From: Chiloscyllium plagiosum
Lineage: Eukaryota
Direction of reading: 5' to 3'
Assembly: GCF_004010195.1 (NCBI RefSeq)
Contig: NC_057718.1
Span: 62,892,225 to 62,956,224 of the forward strand
Length of the DNA stretch: 64,000 nt
A program made the translations under genes and the position numbers. A model generated the notes under the pieces. That model had not been told where the DNA came from. It did no database searches and worked only from the letters and a program-made list of their open reading frames with translations. Positions 14,901 through 63,163 of the stretch are shown here, piece by piece; position 1 is the first letter of the stretch; every line of letters starts with the position of its first letter.

Positions 14901-17900
14901 TTTGTCCCTCTCCATAACTACTTTAAAATGAATAGAACTATGGTCACTGGTCCCAAAGTGCTTCCCCACTGTCACCTCCATCACTTGTCCCTTACCGAGT
15001 AGGAACCTCTATATACTGCTTTAGGAAACTTTTCTCAATGCACTTAAATTCCACCCCATCTAAGCCCTTAACACTCTGACAGTCCCAGCCTATGTTAGTA
15101 AAATTAAAATCCCCTACTATGACAACCCTACTGCTCCTGCAAGTCTCCCCAATTTCGCTGCATATTTGTTCTTCTAATCCCTGTTGACTACTTGGAGGCC
15201 TATAGTACAACCCCAATAACGTCGCCACCCCCTTCTTATTTCTTAGCTCCACCCACAAAGCCTCACCCTCAGTTATTTCATCTCTGACTACTGCTATGAT
15301 AAATCAAAAATGCAACTCCCTCTCCTCTCCTTTCACCACCTCTGTCCCACCTAAAGCACCTGTACCCTGGCACATGAAGCTGCCAGTCCTGTCCCTCCCT
15401 AAGCCATATGTCCATAATATCCCAGTCCCACACACCTATCTGTGCCCTGAATTCATTGGCCTTACCTATCAGCCCTCTTGCACTGAAATAAATGCAATTT
15501 AGTCCAACAGGCATTCCTTGCTCCCTGTTGTATTTCAGCCTGACCTGGATCTTCAACTTACTGTTTCGGATCACTGTATCTCCTTTGAGCCTGACATTTG
15601 CTTCCCTGCTGTTGAGGATCCCACCCCTATCAATCTAGTTTAAACCTTCCCTTGCAGCACTAGCAAATCTAGCCACCAAGATATTAGTCCCCTTCCAGTT
15701 CACATGCAACTTTTTCCTCTTGAACAGGTCATCTCTGCCCCAGGAAAGATCCCAATGATCTAAAAATCTGAATCCCTGCCCCCTGCACCAATTTTTTTAG
15801 ACACACATTCATCTGCCATATCCTCCTGTTCTTACCCTCACTAGCACAGTGCATTGGAAGTAATCTGGAGTTTATCAACAAGATCCTGTTTTTTTTTTTT
15901 TAAAACTTTTTTCCTAGCTCTCTTATAATCACTCTGCAGGACCTCATTGCTATTCCTACCTTTGTCATTTGTGCCAATGTGCACAATGAATTCTGGCTAC
16001 TCACTCTCTCCCTTGAACATTCTACAGCGGCTCGGAGACATCCTGGACTCTGGCACCTGGGAGGCAACACACCATCCTGGATTCCCGTTTCTGGTCACAG
16101 AGTTTCTGTCCCCCTACCTAGCAAGTCTTCTATCACTAAGGTCCTGTCTACCTTTATCCTTTTCCATCATGCCCCAGAGCCAGTCATGGTGCCACCAACC
16201 TGGCTGCTGCTACTTTCCCCTGAATGGTATCCAAAACGGTATGCTTGTTTTCAAAAGGAGTGGCCACAGGGGATTCCAGCACTCTCCTTCCACACCCTTT
16301 GCCTTTCCTGGTGGTCACCCAGCTACTCTTTCCTTCCACCCTACGCGTGACCACCTCATTAAAACTCTTAAGCACTCAGCATCTCACATAATCCAGAGTC
16401 CGTCCAGCTCCCTAACAGTGTCTCCCAGAAGCTGCAACTGGGTGCATTTCCCACAGGTATAAGTCACTGGGCACAATGGAAGTCTCCTTGAGTTTCTATG
16501 TCCTGTAGGAGGAACATGCGACTGCCTGAACTGCCATAAAACTAAAAAGTTAAAAGGACTTTACCTAAGCTTACCTGTACTGTTACTCTCTGAAGCCTCT
16601 CGAGCCAAAGCCTTATTTCCTTCTGTTACCAATAAGTATTGCAATAACATGTCTCTCTATTCCTCCACCTTTTTTTGGTTAGAGAAGGGAAGGAGGGAAA
16701 CATTACAGTCATGTGATGTTTGGGCCTTAAGCATCCCTTGACACTATGACTTGCACTTCAGTGCAAGTAACTGCTTGTCCGCGGAGGGTGTCTTGTCGTT
16801 CATTTCTGAAATTGGATTGCTGTGGACCTCTGGGCCTGATATTTGATGTGAGATATATGAAGTTGGCACATCAAACCCCTTCCTGCCTGCAGTCAAGGTA
16901 AAGTTTCTCTAGTTGGGCAAGTTTGGTTGCAAAGGTTTATCTGGTTGTCCACCTCCCATCGCACACAATCAAGGTGACAACTACTCTACACAGATCTAAA
17001 GTTGCCATTTGGGCTGACTTTGGTTGAGCGCACTTACTCTGACTTACCGCCAATGTTCAATGCTGACAACAGCTTCAGAGTTCTGTCAAAATGAAATCTG
17101 TCTTTACACGGATTTAGTCATTCACACCTTTTACTACTTCTGGCTGCATCTACTTCTTTCTTATTCAGAATGGCATTTATGTATGGAGTCACACCTTTTT
17201 ACTGAACTACTTTCCACGCCTTCAGCAGCTGTATTTCTCCATTTGAGGATTGTCATGCATATATTTGTGTGGGATTTGCTCAATTTCTTTATGATTCCCT
17301 TGGCGATTTTCACCACCACCTCAGCCTTTCTATTTGACTGGCACATGTGGTATTGAACATGTCAATCGCTGAAAACTACTGTCACTCATGATAATGTTGG
17401 GAATATCATCTGCTAAAGTGTGCATTTACAAAGTTGATATTCCTAGTGGTCAACTGGTCCACCATGAAGTAGACAGAAAAGCAATTTACTGTGACAGATT
17501 ACAAGTTCCTGAGAGTGTATAGATGTCAACCCCCATGCATGGTCTGTTTGGAATGTCATGTATTCAGCTTACTTACTTTGGTACTCAGTGGAAGAACTAC
17601 ACTGCCTGATTTTGTTGTTCACATTTGACCAGAACATCATATCTCACCTTCATCAGACTCTATATGTTGGTGGAGAAAGTGAGGTCTGCAGATGCTGGAG
17701 ATCAGAGCTGAAAATGTGTTGCTGGAAAAGCGCAGCAGGTCAGGCAGCATCCAGGGAACAGGAGAATCGACGTTTCGGGCGTAAGCTCTTCTTCAGGAAT
17801 GAGGCCTCATTCCTGAAGAAGGGCTTATGCCCGAAACGTCGATTCTCCTGTTCCCTGGATGCTGCCTGACCTGCTGCGCTTTTCCAGCAACACATTTCCA

Positions 17901-20900
17901 GCTCTATATGTTGGTGACATGATTGAGTTTTAACATTTTTCCTCTTAACTCCTTGTACAATATACCAATTTGGGCTGTCAATTCAACTTAGTATGTCAAT
18001 ATACTATTGTAAGTCATAGGTGTGTCCTGATGCTTTTGGGCTATTTTCTTATCACAATTTCCAACTGTTCTAAGTAGTTTGGAATTTGTTAGGTAGTTCA
18101 GATGATTGAACAAGATGTTTACTTGTTACATTCAATTGTCTGCTGTGTTGATAATTCCAGATCACGATGAACAACTGCTTCACACTGAATCTAGAAGATT
18201 TCACATTCCTTTGTAATATTATTGGAGTGCTGCGCTGGACAGCAAGCCTGAAATATACATCCGCTTTCCTTGCTTGGCTGTCACATCCACGTGGTATCTT
18301 TATAATGGATGTAAAATCCGTTGAAGTGGGTACTAATGTATTAAGGGAAATGTTTTGAAGTAACTAGAGGTCAGACTTGACTGTCGCTTTGTATCTTCCA
18401 TGTAGAGTAGAGACCATCATTATTTTTATTTTGTTTTTATCATTTTTGGTTTGGAACAGAGAGGTGAAGTTAAGAATTGAACTTTTAAAACAGCTAGTGT
18501 TTGAGGAGAACAAGGACAGATGGGAAATGGCTTGGAAAATAATGCAACGTAATTATTGATCGAAGGACACCATAGATCAATCAGCATCAAGTTGTTGCTA
18601 AACTCGGGGTTGGCAGCTGATTGGACGTTGAATTTGTCAATCAAGTGAGAACTGGAGCTAACCAGCCAACTAGAGAATATTGATTAAAAAACAAGAAAAG
18701 AACAGGTCCTCACTGAGGCAAGAGGTAAGAGGCAGTGTGTTTTTGAGGCTTCCTGAGATTGTGCTGCTTTGTTTTGCTCACTCTCTAATTTCTCTCCTGT
18801 TACTAAATTATTGAATATTCAGAGTAAAGAATCTGTAAGAAATAAATATTTCTAGAAATCTTCTGAAACTGTATGCATTAATCAGTGACTTTGGAATTCA
18901 AGACACACAGTTCTACTTGCCTGTTAACAACCCATTGTCCAAGAATATCACTAAGACCTGGTCAACATTTGAAACTGTTTAATGAACTGGCTAATTATAA
19001 CTCTTATTTTTAATTTATTCCTTAGCCGTGCGAGAATGGGAGTTATGATCAAAAGGAGATGGGACTTTAGATCATAGATATTAATTAAATTACCTCATTA
19101 TTTATCTGTACTTTGAAAGTGAATTATTAATAACAAATTGTTAATTATTGTTTAAGTTTGAATTTGGTGTCCAAGATCTGTTATTCATAAAATATAGTTA
19201 AGAACAACTGGGCAATTTAGGGGATCATTGAATGTTTTCATTTCAGTGTGTTGTGAATTCAGCGATAGAGAAACTGATTTGGTTTGGCTTACTATCCATG
19301 TTTAATTAGTAGCTGTTGATAAACATGCCCATAGGCAAAGCCAATGGTCTGATATTCCTTCTCAACCTGAGCATGAAATCACTCCACTTGTGTCAACACC
19401 TGACTACAAAAATAACTGGTTGTCCTTGCTGCATTTGAGCTGCTCCAAAGTTCAGTTTTGCTGGCAGCACATTGCTGGGTGACTATATCACAGTATTTCA
19501 GTACTGGTATTGTCGTCACTAGTTGCTCGATTTTAGTAAATGCTATTTATTGTTCTGTGCCCCAATACAATGGCATATTCCTGGCAGTAAGCTGCATAAA
19601 ATTGGACAAGAATTTTATTAAACAGTTGATAAAACCAACAAGATTATTGTACTGTTGTTATATCTGTTGGTCACTGTATTGCTGCTACAGCTCTCACCTT
19701 TTTAGAATCCAGACAAAGACTATTTACTGTCAATGCAAAGACTATGCAGAGGGGCAATTTTAGCTTTTTTTCTTGTTCAGCTTCATCTGGCAAGTTTCAT
19801 TGAGCAGTTGCGCTAGATTCTGCGGTGACTACCTCTATGTATCTCCATATCCATAAACTAGCAGACCACCCACTTTAGCTTCCAAGCGAGGAAAATCTCT
19901 TAACCACCTCATGTTATCGGTGTTGACATTTTTCTGAGAAAGAAAAATGTCAAACAACCTGTGGAACCAATTTTATCTCATGAAGGGTGTCCAGAACGTG
20001 GTTAAAAGACTTCTGCTTTCATCCAGCTTCGTTTCACAGAATCTCTCTTGTAGTACACTGAGGTAACCTTCTTCACCTGTCCACTACACCTCCAATTTTG
20101 GTGTCAGCTGCAAATATACTAACCATACCTCCTCTGTTCGCAGCCAAATCATTTACATAAATGATGAAAAGCAATGGGGCCTGCACCGATCCATGTGCCA
20201 CGGTTGGTCACAGGCCTCCAGTCTGAAAAGCAACCCTCTACCATTACCCTCTGTCTTCTACCTTCAAGCCAATTCTGTATTCAAGTGGCTAGTTCATTCA
20301 GTATTCCATGTGATCTAACCTTGCTAACTAGTCTACCATGAGGAAAGTTGTTGAACGCCTTATTGAAGTGCATACAGATCATGTCCACCGCTCTGCCCTC
20401 ATCAATTCTTTGTTACTTTCTCAAAAAACTCATTAAGTTAGTGAGACACGATATCCTACTCATGAAATTTTATAAAGGATTAAATATAACCAAAGACTGA
20501 ATTAATATGAAAAAATAAAGAACAAGACATTGTAATGTAGGAATCTCAAAACATAAGACCAAGAAAAATGAATATTTCCATGCAATTCATCTACATATCA
20601 AAATGCATTCAAAAACTAAGGCTGTATTATGTAATAAGAGGAAATCATAAATGCTTCTTTCTCATTCGGTCCATGATAATCAATCTAGTCATATTAATTT
20701 AAAAAGTGATGATGCAAAACACTAATTTAATTTTAAGTTGGATCTTAAGTGCTTGCTTTAAGTTGTCCAGATTAAGACCATAAAATACCAAAGTTTGTAA
20801 TTTCTCTCAAACATGTTTCAAATAACAAGTGTAAAATGTCACTCACAATATTAGTTTATAGGTACCCTCACAGTAATGGGGAGAAAGTGAGGACTGCAGA

Positions 20901-23900
20901 TGCTGAAGATCAGAGTCCAGAGTGTGGTGCTGGAAAAGAACAGCAGGTCAGGCAGCATCCAAGGAGCATGCAAAAATCGACATTTTGGGTATAAGCCCTT
21001 CATCAGGAATGAGCCTCAGGATGCTGCTTGACCTGCTGTGCTTTTCCACCACCACGCTCTCGATCCACACAGTAATTTCATTGTACCTTGTGGTATACAG
21101 AAACAGTAATGCTGACTTATGAGAAATGTACAGTGATAATCGTAGGATAATTTTAATCTACACACAGAGTAGATGAGTCAGGTGAACAAATGTAGCTTGG
21201 AAGATGAGTTCAGAATGTTTTCAGGACAGTTTTCTAGATCATACATTCTAGGGATCAGACAGTAGGATGCTCTGGACGTGGAAACGTATAATAAGAACAG
21301 ATGACCTCATAACAGCAGTACCCCTGGGTAGCAGTGATCGTAACATTGTCAGCTTGAATGAGAAAGGATCAAGTGGCAAAGAAGGCAGATGACAGGTTTG
21401 CCTTCACGGGTTGGGGCACCAAGTATCAAAGTTAATAAGTCATTTTGCAACTGAATAAAACTTCAGTTAGGTCACATTCGGAGTACTGTGTGCATTTTTG
21501 GCCATTGAATTGCTTCAAAGCCAAGCAGATCAAATTCTTGACAAAGGAGTCAAACATGATGGACTAGAAAGTAAGGTTGAGAAAACAAACAGATCAGCTA
21601 TACATGTTGTTTAATAGCAGAACTGGCCCAAGGTACTGATTGGCCTAATGCTGATTCTGATATATACATACGTAGTAAGGTTTGAGATTTTGCTATATAC
21701 AAATAAGTCCAAAATTATAATTTATTTGGCCAAATTTCATCAATGGGCAAGATTCAGTTTGCACTTGCATTTCCAGCATAATCTGATCTTAGCTCCCATT
21801 TTCCATCGTGTGAAATAACTTATTTTACAATTAAGAATAAATTCTGTAATTCACATTGTCATTTTTACTACAGGACATAAATTCACTTGGAATCCAAATT
21901 TACTGTAATATTATAAAAATTGAGATGAAGAGAGAAACAATGCAGCCAAGAATAATTCCATTGTATAAAATTATAATTACCTTATCAGGCAACCCAGCTG
22001 GTTGACAAACAATTCGTAACGGTAAAGACTGTTTATCACTAAGGGCTTTTAGGTGGCTGCTGATACCTGTACCCTCAATCTGCCATTGCCGCAAATGGTA
22101 TGCAAATCTATGGATAAAATGCAAGCCAAAACTGCTATCAACAAGTGTCACATATTTTTCCTTTAACAAAGAGAAAATGTTTAAAATATTGGATTAGGAT
22201 TTTCCTTTAGTGTTTGCTCATAACATAAAAAACAAACATGAAGTGCTACTTTTAATTGCGAAGTTGAAATGGATCAGTCTGCATTTCAATTAAGGAATAT
22301 TTTAAAATGACTGCGAACCAATTAATTAAATAAAGCATTCAATTCCAATGAGGTTGGTCATTCCAAAATTTCAGTAAATTACAGCTTTCTAAAATGGACA
22401 TTTTCAAGCTATGTGACCAATCTAAACATGCAATTATAGCCTGCAGTTACAGCACATATACACCACAGGAGAACGTTAAATCAGAGGCAATTAGTACGGC
22501 ATGCTGGGCTGTTATATTTAGGGATATGCTTTAAGCTACGCTGGTTAAAAGAAAACAGCCAAGATTTTCAGTATGATTTATGTCCAGTTGCAGTCCAGTG
22601 AATTGTGCAGGGTAACCGAAGGCAAGAGTTGTTCAACTATGAAAACCTCACTCTCGCAAAAAAAAGGTCATACAACTTATGAAACACATTAAGGGACTAA
22701 ATAATTCTGTGTCCCACCATGCTGTGATGCAATGTATAAAATATCATATTCCAAGCATACAATACCATGCATGACGCAAAAGCAAAATAATTTTACAAAT
22801 TAAGATTTGCATGTGTTAAATGGCTATTTTTCCTCCATTTGGAAACATCTAGACTAACCAAAATTATTTAGGTGGTGATAATGCAGAATAAAGAAAAGCA
22901 AACCAGTATCATATTGCAAAAACTAATCTGAATCTTAGATTAGATTAGATTCCCTACAGTGTGGAAACAGGCTCTTCGGCCCAACAAGTCCACACCGACC
23001 CTCCGAAGAGTAACCCACCCAGACCCCTTTCCCTCTGATTAATGCACCTAACACTATGGGCAATTTAGCATGGCCAATTCACCTGACCTGCACATCTTTG
23101 GACTGTGGGAGGAAACCAGAGCACCCGGAAGAAACAGACACAGGGAGAATGTGCAAACTCCACAGAGTCACCCGAGGCTGGAATTGAACCTGGGACCCTG
23201 GTGCTGTGAGGCAGCAGTGCTAACTACTGAGCCACCATGCCGCCCCAAATAGATATGGTAGAAAGTGCAAGTGCTAGGCTTGTTTGGTTAAATCGCAACC
23301 ATAGGACATTTATAAATACTTATACTTAAATTAATGAGGTTAAGAGATATGCATGGCCTTTAAGTAACAAATTTTGTTTTACCTTCTTCTAAATGCTTCC
23401 AAGTGAGTTTTCAGCATCAAGAGTCCCCTTTCAATTATAGTAAGGCTGGATTGAGGTTCTTTGTCAAGATTTTCTGATGCCATCATCAGGCTCTCCATAC
23501 ATTTACTGATAAATTCTTGCTCCTTCTCCAAGCCAGTTTTACCTGTAACATTAGTGTTTTAAAATAAAAGAGAGGATGAATACATAATTCAGTTACCATT
23601 GTAAATCCATACATTCAAATCATTTTTATCCAATTTTTTTTAGATGATAGCAACACTTCTGGCACCCTCGGAAAACAAGTAGTAAAGTTAATTTGGACTT
23701 TGAAGTTTCTCCGGTCTGAAGACTGAGGACCTGGTGGATGCAAAACTGAAGTGCTAAAACACCAGAAGAGGAAATTTAAGTTTAGTGTAACAAGCTTGCA
23801 TAAGCAGTTTCCATTACTAAAGTGAGTACTGGTGTCTATTCCTGAAAACTTTACTTCCGACTGGTATTTATTTGTCATACATCCTGCAGAAATTGCAATC

Positions 23901-29900: not shown

Positions 29901-32900
29901 AAAAGTGGACTCAGCACTAATCCTTGTAACACTGATGGTCACAGGACTCCAGTCCAAAAAGCAACTCTCCACCATCACAGTCTCCTGCTTTTAAGCCAAG
30001 TTGAATCAGATTGGCAAACTCACCCTGAATGTCATGTGCTCTAAGTTTAGAAATTAGTCCACCAGGTGGGATCTTGTCAAAGGCTTCACTGAAGTCCAAG
30101 TAAACAATGTCTGCCACTCTGCCCTAGTCAATCTTCTCGGTTACTTGCTCAAAAAAATTCAAGTTGGTCAGATTTGAGCTGAAGGGTTACAGAATTATCT
30201 ATCTGCAACCCCTTCCCCATTTTCAGATAATGAAAAGGTGCACTGATTGTGGGCCTACATCTGTAATGCTCAACCAATAGGCAGGAAAGCAAAAGCAACC
30301 TTCGATGCAAGGTTCATACAGAACTTGAGTTTAACATATCAATATAAATAAATGAGAGTTAGTGTAAGCCAAACAGCTTTTGATAATCTCCACCGTTCAG
30401 TAAATATCTGATATCGACCTCACTTCTACTTCCCTGTCTGGATCCAGTTCAGAAAAAAAAATTTATATTGCATTTCTTATGACCACCGGGTGTCTCAAAG
30501 CACTTTATAGCCAATGAGATATTTATGGAAGTGTACTTGCTTTTGTGGTTTAGGAAACAAGGCAGTGAATTGCACACAATGTGTTATTAACCAAAGAGTG
30601 TGTGTATTTCTGTGACGTTACTGAGCGGCACATATTAACCAGGAAGCAGAGGATAACTTCTCTCCTCTTCCCACCCAAACTGGGTGTCACTAAACCAGTG
30701 GTACGACACCTTCCACTAGATTGACTAAGTAAAGATAGTAAAACGAGGAAGGTTCTAATGTTAAAAAGAGTAATAAGCATATGATTTGGCAGATTTTAGA
30801 TAAAAATTTCAAAAGTAATGTGGAACATTATGGGTCTAGCAAAAATGAGGAACTTGACAAAATTATTAATAATGAAACAGCACTGGAGAACTTAATTTAG
30901 TAAAGTTAATGTTCTCTTCAAAATGTTGTGTCCACTGAATTTTTTTTCCAATCCCACAAAAAAAACATGTCGACTTACACAAGTGTTAGTTCTCAGAGCA
31001 CAAAGCTGTGTAGCATCTATGTCGCCATGTGACACAAAAGGTAAACTATGCCAACACTGCCTGCTCCGATGTCTACATCCTAAGAGATGACTATAAAGAC
31101 AGTGAAGACATTTGCTTTTGATCTTTCAAAGTTCTTTATATTCTAGAACATATTCTGCAAATTAAGAGGTAGCAAATTTAACCCTGTTATTCAAGAAAGG
31201 ACAGAGACAGAAGTAAGTGGAAACTATTGGACAATTAGCTAACACAGTCGGAGGCAAAATGCTAGAATCTTTTATACAAGCTGCCCTGACATATACGATT
31301 AGGCACCATTTACGGAATTATAAAGCAAAATCATGTTTAATTCTGATGTAGTAACTAGTCAGCAGACACAGTGGCCGAAAGACAAAAAGGTCTGAATTCT
31401 CTCATGTAACTGCAGCACTTGGTTTTAATCTGTGATGAAATGCAAATCCTTCTAAGGCACCCCAAGGTAATGGAATTTTTAATCTTCAAATGGGTGGAAA
31501 CATTTTTTTCCTTGTTTTCCTTCTACTGTGAAAGAATATGGAACAATATATTAGCATAAAGTCAAAGTACCCTCAGTATTTTAACATTCAATGCAGTTCA
31601 CGTACGTAATTCAGATTGAAATACATTCTAACAACAGAACACTACTTTCCAGTTTATTTACATAGAAAAATGAAGCAAAGGACTATGGCAGTACTTTGCA
31701 AACTACTTTCCAATGTGATCCCACTTATCACTAGCATGAGGGCAATTAGGAACAGGCAACAAATGATGATCTTAATAGTGATATCCACATTCCATGAGTG
31801 AATACACATTGTAGAAAACCTGGAAACTAAAGTGACCTGAGACATCAGCAAAAACAGAACTCATGTTATCCTTCATGTAGATTTTAGTCACACTGTTCTT
31901 ATTTCCTCGTGACGGAAGACTTAGTGAAGCCTCTCTCCACACACATATACACCAATCTACAAACACACAGCTCGTGGCAAACCGTACCCTGCCAGCCATC
32001 CACTCAGCAGCTCCTCATCCCAAACTCATAACTCCCAAATTAGAAGTTGACCACATTCCTAAATACCAATCCAATTCACCTCCCCATCCCCCAATTTCCA
32101 ACTATAACCCAGACAGTCGCATTCTACTGTCAATCCTCTCCTGAGGATCTGAAACTTAAATAGAGGCGGAGGTAATTAGTTGTTGTCAGGAACAACCATT
32201 TAATACATATTTTTAATAACTTAGGTGGCAATAAAATGGCTACTTGATGCAAATAACATATCAAAATAGCTTCTAGGCTGCAAATTGACAATTCTGCTTA
32301 AAGCTGTGTAAAAATCATTTTTAACCCTGCTAAAGCCTAAATTGACTTGACCACAGTCTGTGTGTAGGTTTGCTCACTGACCTGGAAGGTTCACTTTCAG
32401 ACGTTTTGTCATCATACTAGATAACATCTTCAGTGAGCATTTGGACGAAGCACTGCTCGTGTTTCCTGCTTTCTATTTATGTTTGGGTTTCCTTGGGTTG
32501 GTGATGTCATTTCCTGTGGTGAAGTACTTTCCTGTTTTTTTCCCCCGGGGGTGGTAAATGGGGTCCAAGTCAATGTGCTTGTTGAGAGTTCCAGTTGGAA
32601 TGCTATGCGTCTAGGAATTCGCATGCGTGTCTCTATTTGGCTTGGCCGAGGATGGATGTGTTGTTCCAATCGACTGGGACAACACATCCATCCTCAGTCA
32701 AGCCAAACAGACATGCACAGGAATTCCTAGAAGCATGGCATTCCAACTGGAACTCTATCAACACACATTGACTTGGACCTCATTTATCACCCACAGGAAA
32801 AGAAAACAAGAAAATACTTCACCACAGGAAATGACATCACCAACCCAAGGAAACCCAAATATAAATAGAAAGCAGGAAACACTAGCAGTGCTTCGTCCAG

Positions 32901-38900: not shown

Positions 38901-41900
38901 TCCATTTAGAGTACAAGACGTTTCACTGCCTCCATTCAATTTACCTACAATGGCCAAACAAAATTATACATTAAACTTAAAATACATTCTTCATAAAGGT
39001 GAATGTGCCTTGACACAAGAATCACTGTTTACATTCTCTCAGAACATTCCTTCTGTGTACAATTACAAATCACGCAAAATCCTTGATATCTAAAAGGGAT
39101 AGGAGCATGGAGTTCCTACGGATAGCACAAAAACATGGACAGTGCTATAATAGAAATTCTCTATCTACCACAAAGGACTGCAACATCAGGACCTGTAAAG
39201 TGGGAAAAAATATCGGGTCTGTGACCAAGCACGCTAGTATGCAGATCCACGAATAGCAAATTAAAGTATCAAAAGGAAAGAGTGTACTTTGATATACCTT
39301 ACATTTGGAGAATAAGTTTAAATTAATCTTGTAGCTAAGAATTGAAATTTTAAATAGTTTGAGAACTTAGTACTTATATAAAGTTAATCTCTGAAGAAGT
39401 GAAATGCACAACTTATACTTCTTTGAAACTTCGAAAAATAACTGTTCAATATACTTAGTTTAACATTTGACTGTATGCATTTTAACACAGATTAAACTAA
39501 TCAAATGCTGAAATCGATGTTGATGTTCAAAAATATTCAAAAAGATGATCAGCAGACATACTTACAACAAATGTTTATGGACTCCTTCTCTAACTGCTTG
39601 AATGTAGTGTATTAGATTGTCAAAGAAAAGTTTCATCATGCTTAGTTCCTTTTCTGCCCACCTATATAATAAAAAGTTGATTATATATTCATTATCCACA
39701 AGTGGATGGCAATTTTATTTCTACTGCGGTGTGTATTACACTATAACTATTTGAGGACAAGTTAGCACATCTTTTACTCATATCAAAAATTAATTTTACA
39801 AATATATATCTATAAAGCCTTTATCTAACACTCCATAAACTTATGTGAACTGCAAACAACTTGGTTCTTTTGTCCCTAACACCATTCATTTCCATCTACT
39901 TACAATGTAGAACCTTTTACTTACATAATTATAAAATATAATTGTCTTCATCTGAGTCAACTGCAAATCACCTTTGATCACCATCTTCTGGCACCAGCTC
40001 ACTTATCTGTCCTACGTTACTAAAATGCTATTTTATTGTAGATGTCTGCTCAGATTTTTTTGATTGCAATACACGTTAAAACAAAATATGAAATTTACTA
40101 CCTTGCCCTCACAAAACATGCACTTCAAACTTCTTGTGATTTGTCTGACTGACTCTCTACATGAAATATTGTTATTGCACAGAGCATAGAGAAACTCCAA
40201 AAGGTGGAGAATGAACAGAAATTTTCAATATGCATAGATATATACAATGTAAAAGAAAATGAAAATAGCTACTTTAGTTAATTACCATTTTTTCCCCCGT
40301 ACCTTTAGTGTTATTACACTGCCCTTAACAATTGGTTATTAATTGGAAATATAAATGGTGCATAAAGGGAAAAGTTACATGGGTGTTTTGGGGGGGGGGG
40401 GGGGGGTGGAGAAAGAGAGAAGCATAGAGGCTGATGGAGCAGACTCTTTGGACTGAATGGCCTACTTCTGCTCCTATAATCTTTTGGTCTGATACACATG
40501 CCACATTTTGGAAATGTGACAACTCGGATGCCACACTTCAGATATGCTTTTCTTAAAAAAGGTTGTGAGGTGATATAACACTGAGTAGATATGAAACTTT
40601 ATAATATCGATAGACTCCTGCAACCAACAAATTCACTAACCTTATCTGGTCTTATGTTAAAACTGTCAATCCCTTTAAATTCCTCGACGTGGCACAGCCT
40701 CCTCCTTACTCCCTCTTGTGGCCTGTGCCCACAGCTCCTTAACCCAACCCCAGTAAACTTCAACACCAACATCTTCACTTGCAGCCTGCTCTGCCAAATT
40801 CCAAGCTTCTTGCAGCTTCTTCATTTAGGCTCCAAAACATTCACACACTCCAATTTCAGCTCCCAATCATCTTGCAGCCTCTGTCTCCACATCACACCAT
40901 AACTCCCAGCAAAATAACTGGCCACTTCCCTTGGAAAAAGGCAATAGCCACGAGTGTCAGAAAAGGCCTCAGCATTTAACAAAAAGCAGTTCCGGTCCTT
41001 CCAGTAACTCCTTCACTTCTACTTCTTCCCAACCGCTCAGATTATAGCCTTTGGATACATCATTAAACGCAAAATGTTCTCATGGTTCAAGTGTTGTAAG
41101 AGCACTACTGAAATCTAGCAGGAAACATTTTTCTTTGCCAACATTAAAAACCCTTGCTGGATTTCTGAACAGATATCAACATAAGTGGGAGATGTATCAA
41201 GATGTTATGTAAATATAAAAAATGTGTCTTCTTTATATTAGCAATTTGTAAGTAAACTGAAGTATTTAACTTGAAAAATCGCAATGTATTGTACAATTGT
41301 GGGTTACTTACATAGTTATCCAATGCGTATCATAACTGCTTCCAAATTGTTGAAAAGTGCCAAATAGTTTTGGCAAAAGACGGAGTGAAACTACCACAGA
41401 TCTAAATAAAGATAATTGGACAGGATTAATATTAAATAATTATTTAATTTTGGATGTCAAATAATCATACTGAGCAAACTTTCTTTAAACTATACCAAAA
41501 TATCTTGTAAGAACAATTTCTAAAGTTATCAATTTTATTACATTTTCATTCTAAATTTGTGACATATGATTACCTAGTTTTAATGTTGTGGTTCTGTTCG
41601 CCAAGCTGGAAATTTGTGTTGCAGGCGTTCGTCCCCTGTCTAGGTGACATCCTCAGTGTTTGGGAGCCTCCTGTGAAGCGCTTCTGTGATCTTTCCTCCG
41701 CCATTTGTAGTGGTTTGAATCTGCCACTTTCGGTTTCAGTTCCAGCTGTCCGTTGCAGTGGTCGGTATATTGGGTCCAGGTCAATGTGCTTTTTGATCGG
41801 TATATTGGGTCCAGGTCAATGTGCTTTTTGATTGACCTGGACCCAATATACCGACCACTGCAACGGACAGCTGGAACTGACAACCGGAAGTGGCAGATTC

Positions 41901-44900
41901 AAACCACTACAAATGGCGGAGGAAAGATCACAGAAGCGCTTCACAGGAGGCTCCCAAACACTGAGGATGTCACCTAGACAGGGGACAAACTTCTGCAACA
42001 CAAATTCCCAGCTCGGCGAACAGAACCACAACAACAACAACCTGAGCTACAAATCTTCTCACAAACTTTGAACACCTAGTTTTAATTTCAATCAAGTAAG
42101 TGATGACATCTTAAGAATCATGTACTCACTACATATTTAGAATGTACAGTATATCAACTTCATCTTGTACTGGGAAATATCATACTTTTATTTCTTACCT
42201 ATCATTTGCCAGATTTTCTAAACAACCTTCAATAAATCTCATTCTAATCTGCCGATCAGTAAACCAGCATACAAGGGAGCACAGCAGTTTCTCAGCTTCA
42301 TTTATCAACCCCTCTGAGAGATGAACCTACACAGACAAACAGAAAAGTAACCAAAAGCACTCCATTCAAACAATTCCAAATTGTTATTATGAAGGTAAAC
42401 ATACCGCGTCTTCATCTTGCACCAGGTCCCAAAGAAGAGTATTACCCTTTTTGCAAACATTATCTAAATTGATGTCTGTGACTGCATTTGAGTTGTATTG
42501 ATGCTTATGAACACTAGGAGCTGAGGAAAGAAGGTACAATATTCAAATATCAAAATAAAATGCATACTCAGGAATAGAGAAATTATTTACTTAAGACTCA
42601 ACAATTTTCCTCCTGCATTTACAATTCTCTACATTTTTCTATTGATCCAAACTCATTGTATGTATAAAAGGCAGTTTTCCAAATCTTTCACAGCATATGT
42701 GGTTTTGCCTTTATACTAACTTCCTCATGATCGCACAAAGGAGCCCACCTTTTCTTCCCCAACAGAAGATGTTATATTTTCATTACAGTCTGGAATAGTA
42801 CGACAAGAATTATGTATACCAACAGATCATCAACAAGTAATATTAATTACCTAAACAAGGTCAACTGATTTGCTCTTAATTCCAGTATCACAAGTAATAA
42901 ATGAGAAAAATAAAATCATAACAGTTACTTCAGTATAATTCCAGTTACAGTTTTCATCAAATGTCTTTCTAAACTTTAGAGAATAATCTCCCCACTAACA
43001 TAGTGCCATATTAGTGTTAAGTTATTTAACTTCATATACTAGCCAATACGTTGAAGTCCTGAAAGGAAAATTTTCATTCAAATGATAGTGTAATTTTTAT
43101 CTATCCCTTCCCAAACAGGCAAAATTAAGTGGGGTAATAGAGTCAATAAAAGATGAAATCAGTACATTTGAATAAGTGGATTTTAAATCCAAAAGGCAAG
43201 ATATAGTACCAGTTTGACTTAAACAAAAACAGAAAGAGACAGCAAACATTGATGGGATGTGTTTTCAGGCTGCCAAGCAGTGGTGGTAATGTAGGACACA
43301 GTATACATCAAAAGAAATTATAGGTGCATGTAACAAAAGTAATCATGGAGACGTCAAGCTACATGTAAGCTGGCCATACCTATCTAATGCTAGTACTGTG
43401 GAAGAATTCCTGGAAGACATTTTTGCTAGGAAGGTAGTTTGCTAGAATAATAAGTTGAACTACCAGTTACAGAATGGCTACTTTCTATATTGTGCAATGG
43501 GAAAAGGCTAATAATCATACTGCAAAAAAGCCTACAGATAAGTAGTGAGCACAAGGTGAGCTTGCGAGTGATGTAGTTAAATCTGAAACTAGGGTCTCAA
43601 ATGTGAACAAGGGAATTCACTAAGGTATAAGATGTAAATATTGATCTGGTATATTGGGAAACTTCATTAAAAATGTACAATGGTACATAGATATTGGTGA
43701 GCATTTAAAGTATTAATACATGGTTCACAAAAAAAAGTCCATTCCTTCAAGGCACAAAAACCTAGCAGGTGTGGTGACCCAACCATGGCTGCCAAAAGAA
43801 GTTAAAAATCACATTTGATCAAAAAAGGTTTCCTCTAATAATACTGAAAACAAAATAATTGGAAGAATTTTAGAATTCCACAAAGTGGAAATTGATAAAT
43901 GAAAGTGAAATAGAATGTTGAAAGTAAACTAGAGAAAAACAAAGATGGACTGTAAAAGCTTAAGTACATAAAATGAAAAATGTTAGAATAGACAAATATA
44001 GGTCCACCAGAGGCAGAGACAGGAAAGTTCATAATGGGGAATCAGGAAATAGCAGAGAACCTAAACAAATACAACAATTCTGTCTTCACAGAGGAAGACA
44101 TTCCTTCAAGGAATACTAGAGAACTAAGGGACTAATGAGAATAAAAAGTGAAATAAATGAGTATTGGAAAAAAGGTGCCACTGGAGAAATTAGTAGGAAT
44201 GAAAGTTGATAAATCCCCTGAATGTAATGGTCTATATTCCAAAGTGTTGAAAAAGGTGGCTGATGTGACCCCATGATTTAATAAAGGAAGAAGAGAGAAT
44301 TAGGGGAGATATAGGCCTCTTAGCTTGACATAATCAGTAGGGAAAATGCCAGAATCCATAATATAAGATGTGTAACTGGACGCTTATAAAATAATGGCAG
44401 GATTGGGCAGACTGCATTCACTGAAAGGACAATCATTTTTGACAGGCCTGACAGAGGTTTTTAGAATGAAGGACTGATAAGGTGGAACCATTAGTTATGG
44501 TGCTCAGTATTTGGATTTTCATAAGGCCTTCAATCATGGTTCCACACAGTAAGTTATTACACAAAATTACAACATATGGGATTGCAACTAAAATACTGAC
44601 ATTGAGAACTGTTTAACAAACAAAGTAGAAAGTAGAGAGTGGAAATAAACAGCTCACACTCTGCTTGACAGGCTATGGCAAGCTGTGTACAACATCATTT
44701 AGGCCCCAGCTGTTCAAAACTTGGGTGTGGAGGATAATATTTTCAAATATGCTGACGACTGAAAACCAGGTGCAAATGAGAGTTGAGAGGAGGAAGCAAA
44801 GAGGATTCAAGGCGATTTAAATACAATGACTGAGCAAAACAACATATAGAAAAATGTGAAGTTATTCACTTTGGTATACAGAACAGAAATGCAGCCTATT

Positions 44901-47900: not shown

Positions 47901-50900
47901 CAAAAGAAACTGAAGGTCCATCTATCCATCACAGCCCAACTGTGCTATTTCAAAAGACACCATGCGAGTCATCTGCTACAACCCAGCATCCCTCTGCACT
48001 TCTAAAGTCCTAACTACATTGGCTTTAAAGCAACTTGGAAATTCCTGAATGCTACTACTTTACGAAGTAACTCTGAAGTAGCAATGTTTTGTTTCCAAGA
48101 GACTCCTCCCAGGGCTGGGGAATGCATATTTCCCATAATTTGGAAAACTTAGTTTAAAGGAATCAGGGCCACTTGTGACCTCTACGTAGAGGAGCATTGC
48201 TGCTAGGTTGGAGGATAATTTATGACAACCCAAGGAGAGCAATAAGATGTAACTAATGGATAGCGTTAGTGAAGAATACAAAGAACAGCATATAAAAGGT
48301 TCGAGTCAGAAATGTTCATTTCTCAATGACTGTGAACAATTAATAACTCGCTGGAGGAGGAAGCTCTACAAATACCTATGATTTGGAGATGTTGGTGTTG
48401 GACTGGGGTGTACAAAGTTAAAAATCACACACCACCAAGTTATAGTCCAACAGGTTTAATTGGAAGCACTAGCTTTCGGAGCGCCGCTCCTTCATCAAAC
48501 ACAACCACCTGATGAAGGAGCAGAGCTCCAAAAGCTAGTGCTTCCAATTAAACCTATTGGACTATAACCTGGTGTTGTGATTTTTAACTTTGTACAAATA
48601 CTTACAAACTCAAAATGATGGACGGGCCCAGCACATCACTGTAAAAGCTAAACTAAGGCACTGGCAACAAACTTCAGCCACAACTACCAAGAGGACATTA
48701 CAGCTCAGCCTCCTCTCGATGTCACCAACATCTTCCCCAGTCTTCAGCCAATTTGATTCATTCCACACAATGTCAAGAATAGAAGGAGGCACTAGACACT
48801 GAAAAGGCTTTGGAGCTTGACAATATTTCAGCAATAAATTTAAGATGTGCCCCAGAATTTGCCCTAGTGTGTATTCTGCACAAAGAAAAGCAAGACAAAT
48901 TCACCCTGGCCCATTACGGAGAGTGTGGTGCTGGCAAAGCACAGCATCTTGATGAAGGGGTTATACTCAAAATGTTGATTCTCCTGCTCTTCAGATGCTG
49001 CCTGACTTGCTGTGCTTTTCCAGCACCACACTCTCGACTCTGATCTCCAGCCTCTGTAGCCCGGTCTTCCTCCCAGCCCATTATTGCCCCAGTTTACCCT
49101 CAATCATCAACAAACTGCTGGAAGGAGCTAACAACAATGCTATCAAGCAGCACATGCTTAGCAATAACCACTCAACAAAGCTTCCTCATTATAACTTCGG
49201 TCCAAACATGGTCAAAAGAGCGGAATATCCTTGAAAGTGAAAGTGACTACCCTTGATAAAGCTGCACTTGAGAGAATATAACATTAAAACAGTAAAAATT
49301 GAGTTATTGGGTGTAAGGGGGAAACTATGCTGATAGGAGTAATATCTAGTACAAAGAAGGATGCAGTTGTTTGTGAGTCCTCTCAGCTCCAGGATCCTTG
49401 CTTTACTGCAGGATCCTTGGAATAGTGTCTGATGCTTAACTATTTTTTTAGCTGTTTTAGTGATTTTCCAAGGGTGTTTGTTGAGCATTGCAGAATATTC
49501 AGCATACTTCTCACAGATAACCAAATGCAAAGACGTGGATAACATCCAGGTTTGATTTGGGCAATCCATATGAAAACTACAAAACCAGTTCAGAAGCTAG
49601 GAATCTTGCAGTGAGTCACTCACCATCTCACTGCCCAAAGTCTATCATCTACAAGGTACAAATCCAGAATGTGATGCCATATATTTCCCACTTGTCTGAA
49701 TGTTGTCTAACAACATTCAAGAAGCTTGACACCATCCAAGACAATTGGCACTGCAGTCACTCCCTGTACTATCAATATACAGTAGCAGTAGTTTGTACTA
49801 AGTACAAGAGGTGCTGCAGAAATGCATCAAGGCCCCTTAGATAACATCTTCCAAACCCATGACCACTACCACATAGTAGGACAAGGGCAGCAAATACCAC
49901 ACCATCTGTACATTTCTATCCAAGAGGCTCACTATCCTACCTTACAAATATATTGCAGTTCTTTCACTATCGCGGACTCAAAATCCTCAGGTCCATAAGA
50001 GCAGTGTAAGCATAACTGCACCAAATAGACTGGAGTAGTTCAAGGCACCTCGCCAGCACTTCCTCAAAGGTAATTGGGATGGACAACAAAAAGTGGTATC
50101 TCAGTCAGCAAAGCGAATATCCCCCAAATAATTAAAAACAAATCAATCTTAAATTATGAAGCTGAGGTACGTTCAAATCCTAAAACACTGCATTTCTGGT
50201 GAGAAGGTTGACAGGACCCTGTTTAGACCACAGAGCTCAAGTGCAAAGAAAATACTTTGAAAATGCCCAAATGTCAGAATCCAAATAACAGCAAAAGAAA
50301 TACTACCTAGTCACTAGAATAATCAAAAATTAACCAGATCTCTATAGACAATAGAAACAACATACGGAGGTATTTGGGTGCCTTTCAGTATTTTGCCTAG
50401 TTGATAATTAGGTAAATTGTTTTATCAAAAAGCGTGTCTTCGAGTACCAACACCATGTAATCTCAAGAATATCGACTTGCATAACATTCCCTGATTTACC
50501 TTTGTATTAAGAGTTAATTGTGTTGCATGAATTATATCAAGAAGGGATAGTAGGAAAAACAGGGCAATTAAGAGAGAGGCAATGGATAATATGGCTAATT
50601 AATTAATTTAAAACCGTAGGAATAAAAGAACAAATTGGAAACAGAGGCAGCTTCATTCTCATGGGAATATGGCCTAGGTAGCTTATTGAAATGTGATAAG
50701 TGGGCAGGCAGAGAGAAACACTGATGCCCTGGTTAAGGTCAGGTCAAAAACGATGCCTTTAGCTGGAGCCATCAAGGATACGCTATCCTTTCAGTGTAAA
50801 AGGTGCTACTTTGCATTATGAGAACACGAGAATTAGAGATAGACCATTCAGATCACTGAGCCTCCTTGATCATTTAAACACAATAATGGCTGACCTTGGG

Positions 50901-53900: not shown

Positions 53901-56900
53901 GTCCAGAACTAGAGGGCATAGGTTTAGGGTGAGAGGGGAAGATATAATAGGAACCCAAAGGGCAACGTTTCCACACAGAGGGTGGTGTGAGTATGGAATG
54001 AGCTGCCAGAGGAAGTGGTGGAGACTGGTACAATTACAACATTTAAAACACTTCTGGATATGTATATTAATAGGAAGGGTTTAGAGGGACATGGGCCATG
54101 TGCTGGCAAATGAGACTAGATTAGATTAGGATATCTGGTCAGAGACAAACAAACTGCAGATGCAGGAATCCAAAGTAAACAGGAGTGTTACACCTGAAAT
54201 ATCGACTTCTCTACCTTAGGATATCTGGTTGGCATGGATGAGTCGGTCCGAAAGATCTGTTTCCGTGCTGTACATCTCTATGACTATGACGATCAAAAGT
54301 GGAGTCTTCTCAAACATTTAAACTACTGTGCCCAACATTGTGAAAAAAGAAAATGTCTGTTGTTTCTAATTGCATACACTAAACTGATATAGAAAGAGAT
54401 CAGTTTTGTAACTGATTGTAGTCAGGCTTAGGCTTGAAATTTAGCATTAAATCTGGTTATTCAGTTACCCCTTCATAGCTGGGATGCATATCTGCATCAG
54501 GAAAATACATCTTCTTTTGATATATTTCATTCCAAAGGCTTGCTAGCAAGGACAAATTAACATGAGGCTTGGAGGCAAACATATCGATTGTAACGAAGAC
54601 AGAAATATTCAAGCCAGTAGTGTTGTGTATAAAGAACCAGGATGAGAATGTTAATGTGGGGCCCCAAGTAACTCTTAGACTCTGGGTAAGCACTAGACAC
54701 ACTGCTCTATGATGGCAATTGGATAAAACAGGAAAATAATCAATTTGAAAAATAAAATAATCATTCTCAGCTTTAAGAATAGTTCTACAACAACTCTTTT
54801 ACAATTAGGACTTAAGAATTATGGTCCACCCCTTCAACCAAAGTTAAAGATCACACAACATCAGGTTATTGTCCAACAGGTTTATTTGGAAGCACTAGCT
54901 CCTTCATTAGATGGTTGCAGAGAATCAGCTCTCCAAAAGCTAGTGCTTCCAAATACGCCTGTTGGACTATAAACTGGCGTTGTGATTTTTAAACTTTGAC
55001 CACCCCAGTCCAACACCGGCATCTCTAAGTCATTCAACCAAAGTATGTGACAACCTACTCTGCCTCAGAATTGTCCTCCTGCAAGAACATGACAACGTCT
55101 GGATGGACACAGCAAAATGAAGACAACACATTAGTGGAAACAAGAACATTATTTTGTACAAAACATGTTCTGGGAACTTAGAACTGCAGTTTAAGTATAC
55201 TGCAGAAATATGCAAAATAAATAAGTTCAGCTCTTCAAATGTCCTGATATTCTTCACAATGAATTAAAGAGTTAGAGCAGGTAAATGCAGCAGGCATTTG
55301 GTGCACAAGACCAACAAAACAGACAAGAAAAATGACATTAGTTGACGCAAGGAAAAATGTTGGCCACAACACCAGGAAAACTCAAAATACTTTTTCTTCC
55401 TCCAAATAATATCATTTCCATCCAAGTGAGCAAGGGCGGCCTCAATTTAACATGTCATTAACTGGGAAAGTCGGGGATAGCATCAAATTGAAAAAAACAT
55501 ACAATGTAGTAAAGGTTAGTTGCAAACCAAAGGTTGGGAAAGCTTTGTAAACCAAAAGAAAACACAAAAACAATACAGGGATACAGAATTGGCTGGCCCA
55601 TAGAAGACAGAGTGGTAGTGAGTTTTGAGAAGATTTGTAGCTCAGGTTGAGGTTCTGTATGTAAGTTTGCTTGCTGAGCTGAAAAGTCAATTTTCAGACG
55701 TTTCATCACCATACTAGGTAAAATCATCAGTAAGCCTCTGGTGGAGCACTGGTGTTATTAACTTAGATACAGACGAGGAAGGATACCACTTGGACTGGGA
55801 CAACACATCCAACCTAGGGCAAGCCAAACAGGGACACTCATGAGAATTCCTGGAAACATGGCATTCCAACCGGAACTCTAACAATAAATACATCAACTTG
55901 GACCCCATCTACCACCCTCTGAGAAAAAAAAAAAGGGATTGACATCACAAACCCAAGGAAACCTAAACACAAAGAGAAAGCGGGTCACTAACACCAGTGC
56001 TTCACCAGAGGCTCACTGATGTTACCTAGAAACATCTGAAAATGAACTTTCCAGCTCAGCGAGCAAACAGAGGGCGGTAGTAGATGGAAAGTATTCAGCC
56101 TGGAGCTTGGTAACAAGTGGCGTTTCACAAGGATCTATTCTGGGACCTCTGCACTTTGTGATTTTTATAATTGATTTGGCTGAGGAACTGGAACAGTGCG
56201 TTAGTAAGTTTGCCAATGACACAAAGATTGGTGGAGTTGTGGACAGTGTGGACAGCTGTTGTAGGTTGCAATGAGACATTGACATAATGCAGAGGAGTGA
56301 CAAATGGAGTTCAACAAATATTTAACATTTAATTCAGAGATCAGTACTTTATTTGTTGCAGCATGACAAAGTATGGATAACTTCAATTTTTTACTCTATT
56401 AGGAAGATCTGATAGTCGCAACACCTGCGTATATGAGCGTAGTTTATTCACAATATAAAATCCTCAGGAGATGTATGCCAAGTACATTAGGTTATCTGGC
56501 AGTGGATTTTGAGGGATACAGCAGTTCCCGCAAAGGAGACATGAACTTAAAATGATATATTCAATTATAGATTGATTTAAAAGTCAGGAATGAGAATTCT
56601 TACAAATTAAAGTTTGATACATTAGATTAATAAATGCATAAATTATACAGTCCAAATCCTAAAGCCACGAACCAAAGTCACCTTTTCTAATTCAGATTGG
56701 TGTATTACTAAAATATAACATTCAACGAGAGGCATCTCAAATCATTCATTAGATTTCATGTTTCATTATTTCTGCATCAAAATGTACACCTGTTTATATT
56801 AGCATCAACCATTCCAAGATTAAAATAAAATGAAGTAGAGCAAACTTACCTATCATGATGGTGGTGGTGGTGGTGGTGGTGATGGTGGTGGTGATGGTGA

Positions 56901-62035: not shown

Positions 62036-63163
62036 ATTACTTTCAAATTACTGTTTTGATTTACTTAGACATTCCATGTCAAATTGGCATTAAGACAATT
62101 GAATAGTTAAAATGAATTCTGTTTAATTTGCTGAATTCAACACCATTGTATAACTACAAAAATATACATAAATTAATTTTAAAAAGATGGAGGTGACAAT
62201 TAAGTTAGGATAAATTGAGAACACTAAATGAGTGTATTTAGCCTTTTTCTTTGCCAATTTTTGAAATGCATAAGCTGCAAGTCATTACCATAGACACAGA
62301 TGTACAAGTAAACTTTGAAGTCTCAAAAATCCTCTAAAGTCAGGGGTCGACTTAGATTTAGAGGATTAAAAACTGAACCCTCAGTGCAACTGTTACATGT
62401 GGTCACGTCTTAAAATTTCGCATGCCTTCACAAGAGGCTCCATAGCATCAATTTGACGTTTTGCACCCAGTTATAGCATTTACTGTGGGTGAAAAATTGT
62501 GGATGACTACTAATATGAATATAGCATGCCATGGCTGTAAAGGGGATCAATTATATATACAATATATGCAAAAACATGACTTTGAGGCTGAAGAAATGGG
62601 GCACCTTATATAATGTCTTGACTGATATGCTGCAATGCATTGTTGGATTATGGGACTGAAAACCACAAAGCTAAGTCAACTTGCTGTGGCAACACTTACT
62701 GACAGCCCAGTGTCTGCATCATCAATGATGAATGGGTTTGAGACAGTGCTGCAGCAGTGACAAAGTCTGCAGCAAAGAGAACAAAGAAACATTGGTTTCT
62801 CATGTGTATCATGCAGCAACTGGGAAATTGTAGTTAAGGCATCACCTTTACTTTCATGGGTAGAATGGGATACGTATTTGGTACCATTATCAAAACGGAT
62901 GTACATACCATCAGCCACTGGTTAAATTATTGTTGGATTAATAAGAAATTTAATGGGAGGACTTCAACTATGTTTTTACACCTTCCCCAAATAAAGCTTC
63001 TGCAATCAAGCTATTATAGCCGGATTTGAAATGGGACTTCATCTGCATTTTTAAAAGTTGCATTAATCAAGGATTGCATGAAAATCTTTTTAAGGCATGA
63101 ACAGCAGCTCTCATGTCCTCTCAGTACTGAGACAAGGAAATAAAACACTACATAACCATTCAA

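What the first reader, a model, noticed from the sequence alone, without database searches (positions are those of the whole stretch)
17658..55044. Asymmetric arms and TSD microhomology suggest both target DNA ends prime reverse transcription on separate copies of the same RNA segment
Seen: in each fold-back, one arm reaches the full element tail and the other stops earlier. In three cases the short arm ends in bases shared with the TSD: ctct at 17902-17905, taca at 48593-48596 and caaagt at 54839-54844. Centre positions differ between copies of the same family (13395 vs 17673; 48379 vs 63164). Known: L1 twin priming gives inverted but non-overlapping pieces, and minimal PLE HHRs are thought to cleave as dimers. 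Inference: both arms cover the same segment, so two RNA copies (a dimer or tandem template) were copied, one from each nick. The second was primed internally through microhomology.
Basis: inference. Interest (0 to 1): 0.7.

Follow-up and report, generated by a model that had tools for sequence, protein, structure and literature searches.

The report
How Penelope fold-back insertions get primed
These hairpin-shaped insertions are the known "inverted copy plus tail" products of Penelope-like jumping genes; their ends suggest that both cut DNA ends start copying at two fixed points of probably one RNA, with short base-pairing helping only sometimes.

Summary
The three named junctions are real, and an orthologous empty site confirms the 15-bp TSD at 17658. 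The window holds 11 scorable head-to-head Penelope-like (PLE) insertions, not 3-5. Short-arm microhomology is in excess over all 11 (22 nt against about 8-9 expected, p about 0.001), but only 4 of 11 have 4 nt or more. The short arm does not stop where homology happens to be: it lacks a near-fixed 34-44 nt in 9 of 11. That is the published PLE "tail", bounded by two in-vitro RT start sites (PMC11167929). Priming from both target ends fits: in 5 of 11 loci neither arm contains the other. "Separate RNA copies" is not supported: all 11 carry exactly one tail, and the arms' inner ends tend to coincide. One RNA read by two staggered RTs, or cDNA snap-back, fits better. The structure is known; the mechanism is open and testable in a family of tens of thousands of copies. 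The scan noted the same structure before in two other windows of this genome.

The parts
17658..17672 (.). Locus A, left TSD copy (15 bp)
   Evidence: empty site in two related organisms
17673..17804 (-). Locus A, tailed (long) arm, family 1; tail = 17673-17707
   Evidence: 28,045 reads of run X19 have a loose end at 17672
17805..17901 (+). Locus A, tail-less arm with minimal hammerhead core at 17813; zero-spacer centre at 17804/17805
17902..17916 (.). Locus A, right TSD copy; first 4 nt also match the element
13381..13608 (.). Locus B, family 1; 14-bp TSD; arms 99% alike; short arm lacks about 48-52 nt; microhomology 0; 8-nt spacer belongs to the tail-less arm
20866..21076 (.). Locus H, family 1; TSD 9-14 bp; short arm lacks about 37 nt and is nested in the long arm; microhomology 0-1
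48909..49083 (.). Locus I, family 1; TSD 8 bp or more; 30-nt short arm nested in the long arm; microhomology 0
48367..48604 (.). Locus C, family 2; 12-bp TSD; short arm lacks 34 nt; microhomology 4; 12-nt spacer belongs mostly to the tail-less arm
54833..55044 (.). Locus D, family 2; 12-bp TSD; short arm lacks 40-41 nt; microhomology 6; internal deletion in the short arm
63153..63681 (.). Locus E1, family 2; 11-bp TSD (1 mismatch); interrupted by E2; strict microhomology 0
63246..63593 (.). Locus E2, family 2, nested in E1 with an exact 11-bp TSD; centre at 63354 (1-nt spacer) about 100 nt upstream of the hammerhead; microhomology 1; internal deletion in the short arm
41572..42086 (.). Locus F, family 3; 13-bp TSD; arms carry the last codons of an RT-GIY-YIG ORF; short arm lacks 41 nt; microhomology 1; 10-nt spacer belongs to the tail-less arm; short tandem duplication next to the centre
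32347..33034 (.). Locus G, family 4; 15-bp TSD (1 mismatch); arms about 310/348 nt; zero spacer; short arm lacks about 40 nt; microhomology 4-5
55605..56081 (.). Locus J, family 4; TSD uncertain; tailed arm 139 nt, tail-less arm 308 nt reaching into the ORF end; short arm lacks 47 nt

Best explanation
These are 5'-truncated insertions of endonuclease-bearing Penelope-like retrotransposons. The element's RT-EN makes a staggered cut (8-15 nt; inferred from the TSDs). Both freed target 3' ends prime reverse transcription, at the element's two built-in start sites, which lie about 35-45 nt apart (the 'tail'). The two starts are coordinated, most likely on one uncleaved RNA: one RT starts at the inner site, the other at the outer site and displaces the first cDNA. 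Both cDNAs are antisense copies of the same segment. Their 3' ends are joined with 0-2 nt of overlap or a few untemplated bases, and repair yields a head-to-head insertion with exactly one tail. Pairing of 4-6 nt between target end and RNA can help the inner start but is not needed. Shown: structure, TSDs, one empty site, one-tail rule, near-fixed ends, microhomology counts. Inferred: two primers, one RNA, strand displacement, end-joining.
For: One tail in 11 of 11 loci (p at most 0.0005 if arms chose sites independently). Missing piece 34-44 nt in 9 of 11, matching the published 30-40 bp tail (PMC3846280, PMC8557442) that lies between two in-vitro RT start sites (PMC11167929). A, H and I stop within about 1-2 nt of the same place with 4, 0 and 0 nt of homology. 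In B, C, D, F and J the tail-less arm reaches further 5' than the tailed arm, so neither is a copy of the other; B and F are young (arms 99% and 97% alike). Inner ends lie within 20 nt in 8 of 11 (free shuffle p 0.001). The anole PLE protein cuts and extends both strands and is predicted to be a dimer (PMC11167929). Microhomology excess: p 0.001 strict, 0.013 at the harshest scoring.
Against: Non-nested centres could come from later deletions: short arms of D, E1 and E2 carry internal deletions, and the direction of asymmetry is 5 of 7, p 0.23. Coupling of inner ends is not significant in a within-family shuffle (p 0.08-0.19). H and I are nested, as snap-back predicts. A's centre is a perfect zero-spacer palindrome at a site that is not palindromic in the family, which hairpin sealing explains as well. 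B and J lack 47-52 nt, off the usual site. No sharp inner-site peak was among the six loose ends shown for run X19. PMC11167929 reports start sites not homologous to the cut DNA and no strand preference for either site. Sequence alone cannot count RNA molecules. No ORF was tied to families 1 and 2.
Confidence: 0.45

Rival explanations
1. cDNA snap-back from one primer. One target end primes at the outer site; the cDNA 3' end folds back and is copied; this second arm stops about 35-45 nt before the first junction and is joined to the other target overhang, sometimes by microhomology annealing.
For: Gives overlapping inverted arms, one tail per insertion, coupled inner ends and microhomology at the short arm from one RNA. 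Zero- or 1-nt spacers in A, G, E2 and nested short arms in H, I fit. Snap-back junctions are reported for R2 insertions (PMC11371274, passages).
Against: It requires the short arm to be nested in the tailed arm; in B, C, D, F, J the spacer reads as part of the tail-less arm, so five later deletions are needed, two in young loci. It does not explain why the stop matches the spacing of the in-vitro RT start sites, or tails at either end of long PLE units (PMC8557442). Centre overlaps are only 0-2 nt where measurable.
Confidence: 0.25
2. One reading: each target end primes on its own RNA copy (dimer or tandem template), the second internally through microhomology.
For: Explains overlapping arms and non-nested centres. 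Microhomology excess over 11 loci. Protein predicted to be a dimer (PMC11167929); minimal hammerheads proposed to act as dimers (PMC4209133). PLE transcripts can be tandem.
Against: No two-tail or no-tail insertion in 11. Short ends near-fixed whatever the homology; 7 of 11 have 0-2 nt. Same-base or 1-nt inner ends in 3 of 11 are unlikely for separately truncated RNAs. No insertion mixes families; the short arm is closest to its own long arm in 5 of the 9 loci that have a family partner (A, B, I, G, J), while C, D and H are ambiguous and E2 has too little overlap with its partners to tell. Arms span the hammerhead cut site uncut.
Confidence: 0.17
3. Published reading: self-priming on an antisense template makes the head-to-head palindrome, and the tail comes from endonuclease resolution of the intermediate.
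For: Proposed in PMC3846280 (Discussion) and PMC8557442 (passage). Perfect palindromic centres in A, G, E2.
Against: The later in-vitro work maps the tail to two RT start sites on sense RNA (PMC11167929). A's centre is not a native palindrome. It does not predict non-nested arms or target microhomology.
Confidence: 0.08
4. MITE-like or master-palindrome copying: a few fold-back masters are copied whole.
For: Both outer ends are near-fixed per family; copy number is in the tens of thousands.
Against: Centres differ in every family with more than one copy. One search shows 15 joints and withholds 1,232 more (some may be alignment artefacts), and 10,526 reads run on into native upstream sequence at A's centre. 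TSD length varies from 8 to 15 bp and ends are asymmetric, unlike TIR elements.
Confidence: 0.03

Closest known systems
Complex insertions of canonical endonuclease-positive Penelope-like elements (inverted 5'-truncated pLTR, 30-40 bp tail at one end, TSD; PMC3846280, PMC8557442)
   Same: Head-to-head arms, tail on one arm, 8-15 bp TSD, palindromic junctions, hammerhead motif in the arms, heavy 5' truncation.
   Different: Here the whole insertion is only the two inverted ends (159-658 bp between TSDs, E1 including nested E2), and this form is all 11 scorable PLE insertions of the window.
Poseidon of Anolis carolinensis in vitro (PMC11167929)
   Same: Two internal RT start sites bounding the tail; both strands cut and extended; uncleaved RNA is the template; predicted protein dimer.
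   Different: That paper reports no homology between start site and cut DNA and gives no model for inverted arms in the parts read; here 4 of 11 inner junctions show 4-6 nt overlap and the two sites are used one per insertion.
L1 twin priming (Ostertag and Kazazian 2001; content recalled, only the citation was seen)
   Same: Both target ends prime on one RNA; the second primer can anneal internally; product is inverted and bounded by a TSD.
   Different: L1 pieces do not overlap and the second site is variable; here the arms overlap almost fully and the second site is near-fixed.
R2 cDNA snap-back junctions (PMC11371274)
   Same: Overlapping inverted copy made from one RNA before the second junction forms.
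   Different: Snap-back predicts a nested second arm; 5 of 11 loci here are not nested. In R2 it is one junction class among several, here fold-back is the rule.

Membership tests
Endonuclease-positive Penelope-like element insertions | Derived from an RT plus C-terminal GIY-YIG ORF | tested here: met
   Families 3 and 4 only. The J peptide finds 64 proteins. Of 18 longer ones scanned, 9 show GIY-YIG at E up to 0.01 (3 above the curated cut-off) and 2 show RVT_1; P0029 has both above cut-off, with the J match just after its GIY-YIG. F's arm reads like P0010.
Endonuclease-positive Penelope-like element insertions | RT-GIY-YIG ORF linked to families 1 and 2 (loci A, C, D of the finding) | not testable with these tools
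These families are filed as PLE by structure only.
Endonuclease-positive Penelope-like element insertions | Minimal hammerhead motif in the pLTR | tested here: met
   Core pattern CTGANGA..GAAA found at 13519, 17813, 17796(-), 63458, 32433(-), 32908, 55730(-); helix II appears in the folds of families 1 and 4, not in the minimum-energy folds of families 2 and 3. No Rfam hammerhead hit. Cleavage not tested.
Endonuclease-positive Penelope-like element insertions | Inverted 5'-truncated copy, head-to-head | tested here: met
   11 of 11 loci.
Endonuclease-positive Penelope-like element insertions | 30-40 bp tail at one end | tested here: met
   34-44 nt in 9 of 11; 47 and about 48-52 in J and B.
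Endonuclease-positive Penelope-like element insertions | Target site duplication | tested here: met
   8-15 bp with 0-1 mismatch in 10 of 11; J uncertain. Empty site seen for A, the only locus tested.
L1-type twin priming product | Inverted pieces do not overlap | tested here: not met
   Arms overlap over nearly all of the short arm.
L1-type twin priming product | Second primer site chosen by complementarity | tested here: inconclusive
cDNA snap-back product | Second arm nested within the first | tested here: inconclusive
   Met or compatible in A, G, E2, H, I; not met in B, C, D, F, J; E1 unclear; later deletions cannot be excluded.
MITE | Identical terminal inverted repeats, uniform length, fixed TSD length | tested here: not met
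   Asymmetric ends, varied centres, TSD 8-15 bp.

The most novel reading that the evidence does not exclude
A PLE RT dimer sits with its two active sites staggered about 35-45 nt on a single RNA. Each site takes one end of the cut target, and the trailing RT displaces the leading cDNA. The universal PLE tail would then be a ruler of the dimer's geometry, and the inverted pLTR the normal product of reading one RNA twice. It predicts exactly one tail per insertion, a tail-less arm that reaches equally far or slightly further 5', and optional pairing at the inner site. I did not find this model in 8 literature searches; most subscription journals are not in that library.
Probability: 0.3. Interest if true: 0.7.

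Novelty: new member of a known kind. Interest (0 to 1): 0.38.

Why it matters
How PLEs build their tandem, inverted and tailed insertions is stated to be unresolved (PMC8557442), and PLE RTs are the closest retroelement relatives of telomerase. Family 1 alone reaches a read depth of 37,900 against a flank median of 1.7, so tens of thousands of short, fully readable insertions exist in this genome, with relatives that keep empty sites. That allows a direct statistical test among two-RNA, one-RNA and snap-back models. The structure itself is ordinary for PLEs.

Tried and rejected
No whole genome was held, so the genome-wide junction test could not be run. Exact-pattern scans for more copies: family 2 gave 0 hits in viral, metagenome and genome contigs. 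Family 1 gave 3 viral hits to an 18-mer, 0 in metagenomes and 1 in a bacterial MAG; these four loci were not examined and are treated as probable chance matches. Rfam: 17 sub-threshold hits, mostly hairpin-like miRNA models, no hammerhead. Pfam on the arm peptides: none; word-index protein search: none. Folding of arms and tails gave z-scores between -0.74 and 1.08, so no special tail structure was shown. My idea that the tail-less arm consistently reaches further 5' is not significant (5 of 7, p 0.23; 6 of 8 with E1, p 0.14). Short-versus-long microhomology could not be compared fairly: the template beyond the long end is known for only 1-4 nt. Long ends show 1 nt in 5 of 6 measurable loci and not more than 1 in the 3 where more could be seen. 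Two old relics (6379-6550, 59475-59543) were left out of all counts because no TSD was defined. The 63496/63583 'tandem' was rejected as a tandem: it is a nested insertion. PMC9977147 had no bearing. Supplement text of PMC11167929 gave no hits; its Figs S1-S2, which show start sites against cut sites, could not be seen and may bear on the microhomology point.
Full report
**Verdict.** The structure is the known Penelope-like (PLE) "inverted copy plus tail" insertion. The second (separate RNA copies, site chosen by microhomology) is not supported.

**Census.** Self-comparison and profile search of the window give 11 scorable head-to-head insertions in four families: family 1 (A 17658, B 13381, H 20866, I 48909), family 2 (C 48367, D 54833, E1 63153, E2 63246), family 3 (F 41572) and family 4 (G 32347, J 55605). 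Two old relics (6379-6550, 59475-59543) were left out because no TSD was defined. Ten of 11 have a TSD of 8-15 bp with at most one mismatch; J's is uncertain. No whole genome was held, so junction statistics rest on these 11 loci.

**The named junctions.** The overlaps at 17902-17905, 48593-48596 and 54839-54844 are as stated. Laying four runs on 16400-20000 showed the empty site of A in two related organisms: X5 record 9 and X12 record 2 both join 17657 to 17902. The 15-bp TSD is therefore real and the shared 4 nt are target DNA. Only A was tested this way.

**What the elements are.** The tail-less arm of J encodes the end of an RT-GIY-YIG protein. It finds 64 proteins; of 18 longer ones scanned, 9 show GIY-YIG at E up to 0.01 and P0029 has both RVT_1 and GIY-YIG above cut-off. 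F's arm reads like one of these hits. Families 1 and 2, which hold the three named cases, have no testable ORF. They are filed as PLE by the minimal hammerhead core, the head-to-head layout, the tail and the TSD. Family 1 is very abundant: read depth 37,900 at the element against a flank median of 1.7.

**Microhomology.** Strict values at the short arm: A4, B0, H0, I0, C4, D6, E1 0, E2 1, F1, G4, J2. The sum is 22, against 7.9 (random window sites) or 8.9 (swapped real target ends); p 0.0007 and 0.001. Harsher scoring gives p 0.004-0.013. So the excess is real within this window. The window may itself have been noticed for these cases. Long ends show 1 nt in 5 of 6 measurable loci, but the reference there is only 1-4 nt long, so short and long ends cannot be compared fairly.

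**The short end is close to fixed.** The short arm lacks 35 (A), 37 (H), 38 (I), 34 (C), 41 (D), 41 (E1), 44 (E2), 41 (F) and 40 (G) nt of its own long arm; J lacks 47 and B about 48-52. A, H and I stop within 1-2 nt of one place with 4, 0 and 0 nt of homology. Family-wide, the long end is sharp: 28,045 of 143,764 laid reads have a loose end at 17672. Contig loose-end consensuses fade near 17700-17704, the mirror of A's short end, but agreement is only about 0.4, so this is weak support. [quoted passage not shown] PMC11167929 maps it between two RT start sites, shows cutting and extension of both strands, finds uncleaved RNA to be the template, and predicts a protein dimer. It also states that the start site is not homologous to the cut DNA, which the 4 of 11 here partly contradict.

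**One primer or two?** A single cDNA that snaps back (seen for R2, PMC11371274) gives overlapping inverted arms, but its second arm must be nested in the first. In B, C and F the centre spacer (8, 12, 10 nt) reads as part of the tail-less arm; D and J are non-nested too. So in 5 of 11 loci each arm has sequence the other lacks. A, G and E2 are symmetric, H and I are nested, E1 is unclear. Against this: palindrome centres can be deleted later, D, E1 and E2 show internal deletions, and 5 of 7 in one direction is not significant (p 0.23). Two primers are favoured, not shown.

**One RNA or two?** Three points weigh against two free RNA copies. First, all 11 insertions carry exactly one tail; independent choice of site gives that with p at most 0.0005, unless the complex is built asymmetrically. 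Second, the inner ends are tied: spacer 0 in A and G, 1 in E2, within 20 nt in 8 of 11 (free shuffle p 0.001; within-family shuffle p 0.08-0.19, low power; arm lengths entered). A's centre is not a native palindrome: 10,526 reads run on there into a different, shared upstream sequence (agreement 0.85). Third, the arms run through the hammerhead cleavage triplet, so dimeric cleavage did not define the template. Sequence cannot count RNA molecules, so this remains inference.

**Most likely working (0.45).** Staggered cut; two coordinated starts at the two fixed sites, probably on one RNA with strand displacement by the trailing RT; joining of the two cDNA 3' ends; optional 4-6 nt pairing at the inner site. 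Strand displacement by RTs lacking RNase H is recalled, not tested. Rivals: snap-back (0.25), two RNAs (0.17), antisense self-priming with endonuclease resolution (0.08; PMC3846280 Discussion), master palindrome (0.03). Models with two target primers total about 0.6.

**Novelty.** The structure is known. An explicit two-primer account of PLE inversions, and target microhomology at the inner start, were not found in 8 searches; the library lacks most subscription journals, including the 2005-2006 PLE reviews. Papers seen: PMC11167929 and PMC4209133, parts 1-2 of 4; PMC3846280, passages and the whole Discussion; PMC8557442, PMC8969392, PMC9977147, PMC11371274 and PMC3649969, passages. L1 twin priming is recalled. 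Supplementary figures of PMC11167929 were not visible. Two earlier scan notes on other windows of this genome reach the same structural reading; they came after my reading was set and are not counted as evidence.

Noticed in passing
window 17672 to 17711 (table 5): Opposite-strand joint from the tail end to near the inner site in 5 contigs of X5, 10 of X12 and 1 read of X19: a tail-to-tail join of a long end with a short end. Could be tandem or nested fold-backs, or a circle junction; unexplained.
   Followed up: no
window 63153-63681: A family 2 fold-back inserted inside another family 2 fold-back with an exact 11-bp TSD; it mimics a tandem repeat. Insertion into the element's own pLTR is mentioned in PMC11167929.
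   Followed up: yes
window 41764-41830: Tandem duplication of about 35 nt at the inner end of F's tail-less arm; both copies end at the same base, as if RT reached the template end, slipped back and copied again. Later slippage is equally possible.
   Followed up: partly
families 1 and 2, e.g. 17805, 13517, 48947, 48498, 63209: Many inner arm ends cluster just upstream of the hammerhead core, which suggests an RT stop or a frequent RNA 5' end there.
   Followed up: partly
window 17805 and 17809 (table 7): Two different upstream consensuses (10,526 and 8,582 reads) show at least two subfamilies of family 1.
   Followed up: no
window 1-1123 and 2212-3346: Inverted 87.5% repeat of a LINE-like segment on both sides of a 500-N gap (1712-2211); possibly two copies or an assembly problem.
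   Followed up: no
window 28478-30172: LINE-like 3' pieces in opposite orientations next to each other (28677-28843 / 29311-29477, 78% complementary).
   Followed up: no
window 56846-57484, minus strand: 212-codon open frame, acidic and serine-rich with a histidine run, probably a host exon; recalled resemblance to vertebrate USP34, untested; no Pfam hit.
   Followed up: no
window 9618-9958 and 11026-11365: Direct duplication of about 340 bp, 83% alike, not one of the PLE families.
   Followed up: no
window 22935-23244, 52525-52696, 60237-60558: Three copies of another interspersed repeat of about 310 bp, SINE-like by size; not identified.
   Followed up: no
window 6379-6550 and 59475-59543: Old relics related to family 1; the first looks like a decayed fold-back.
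   Followed up: partly
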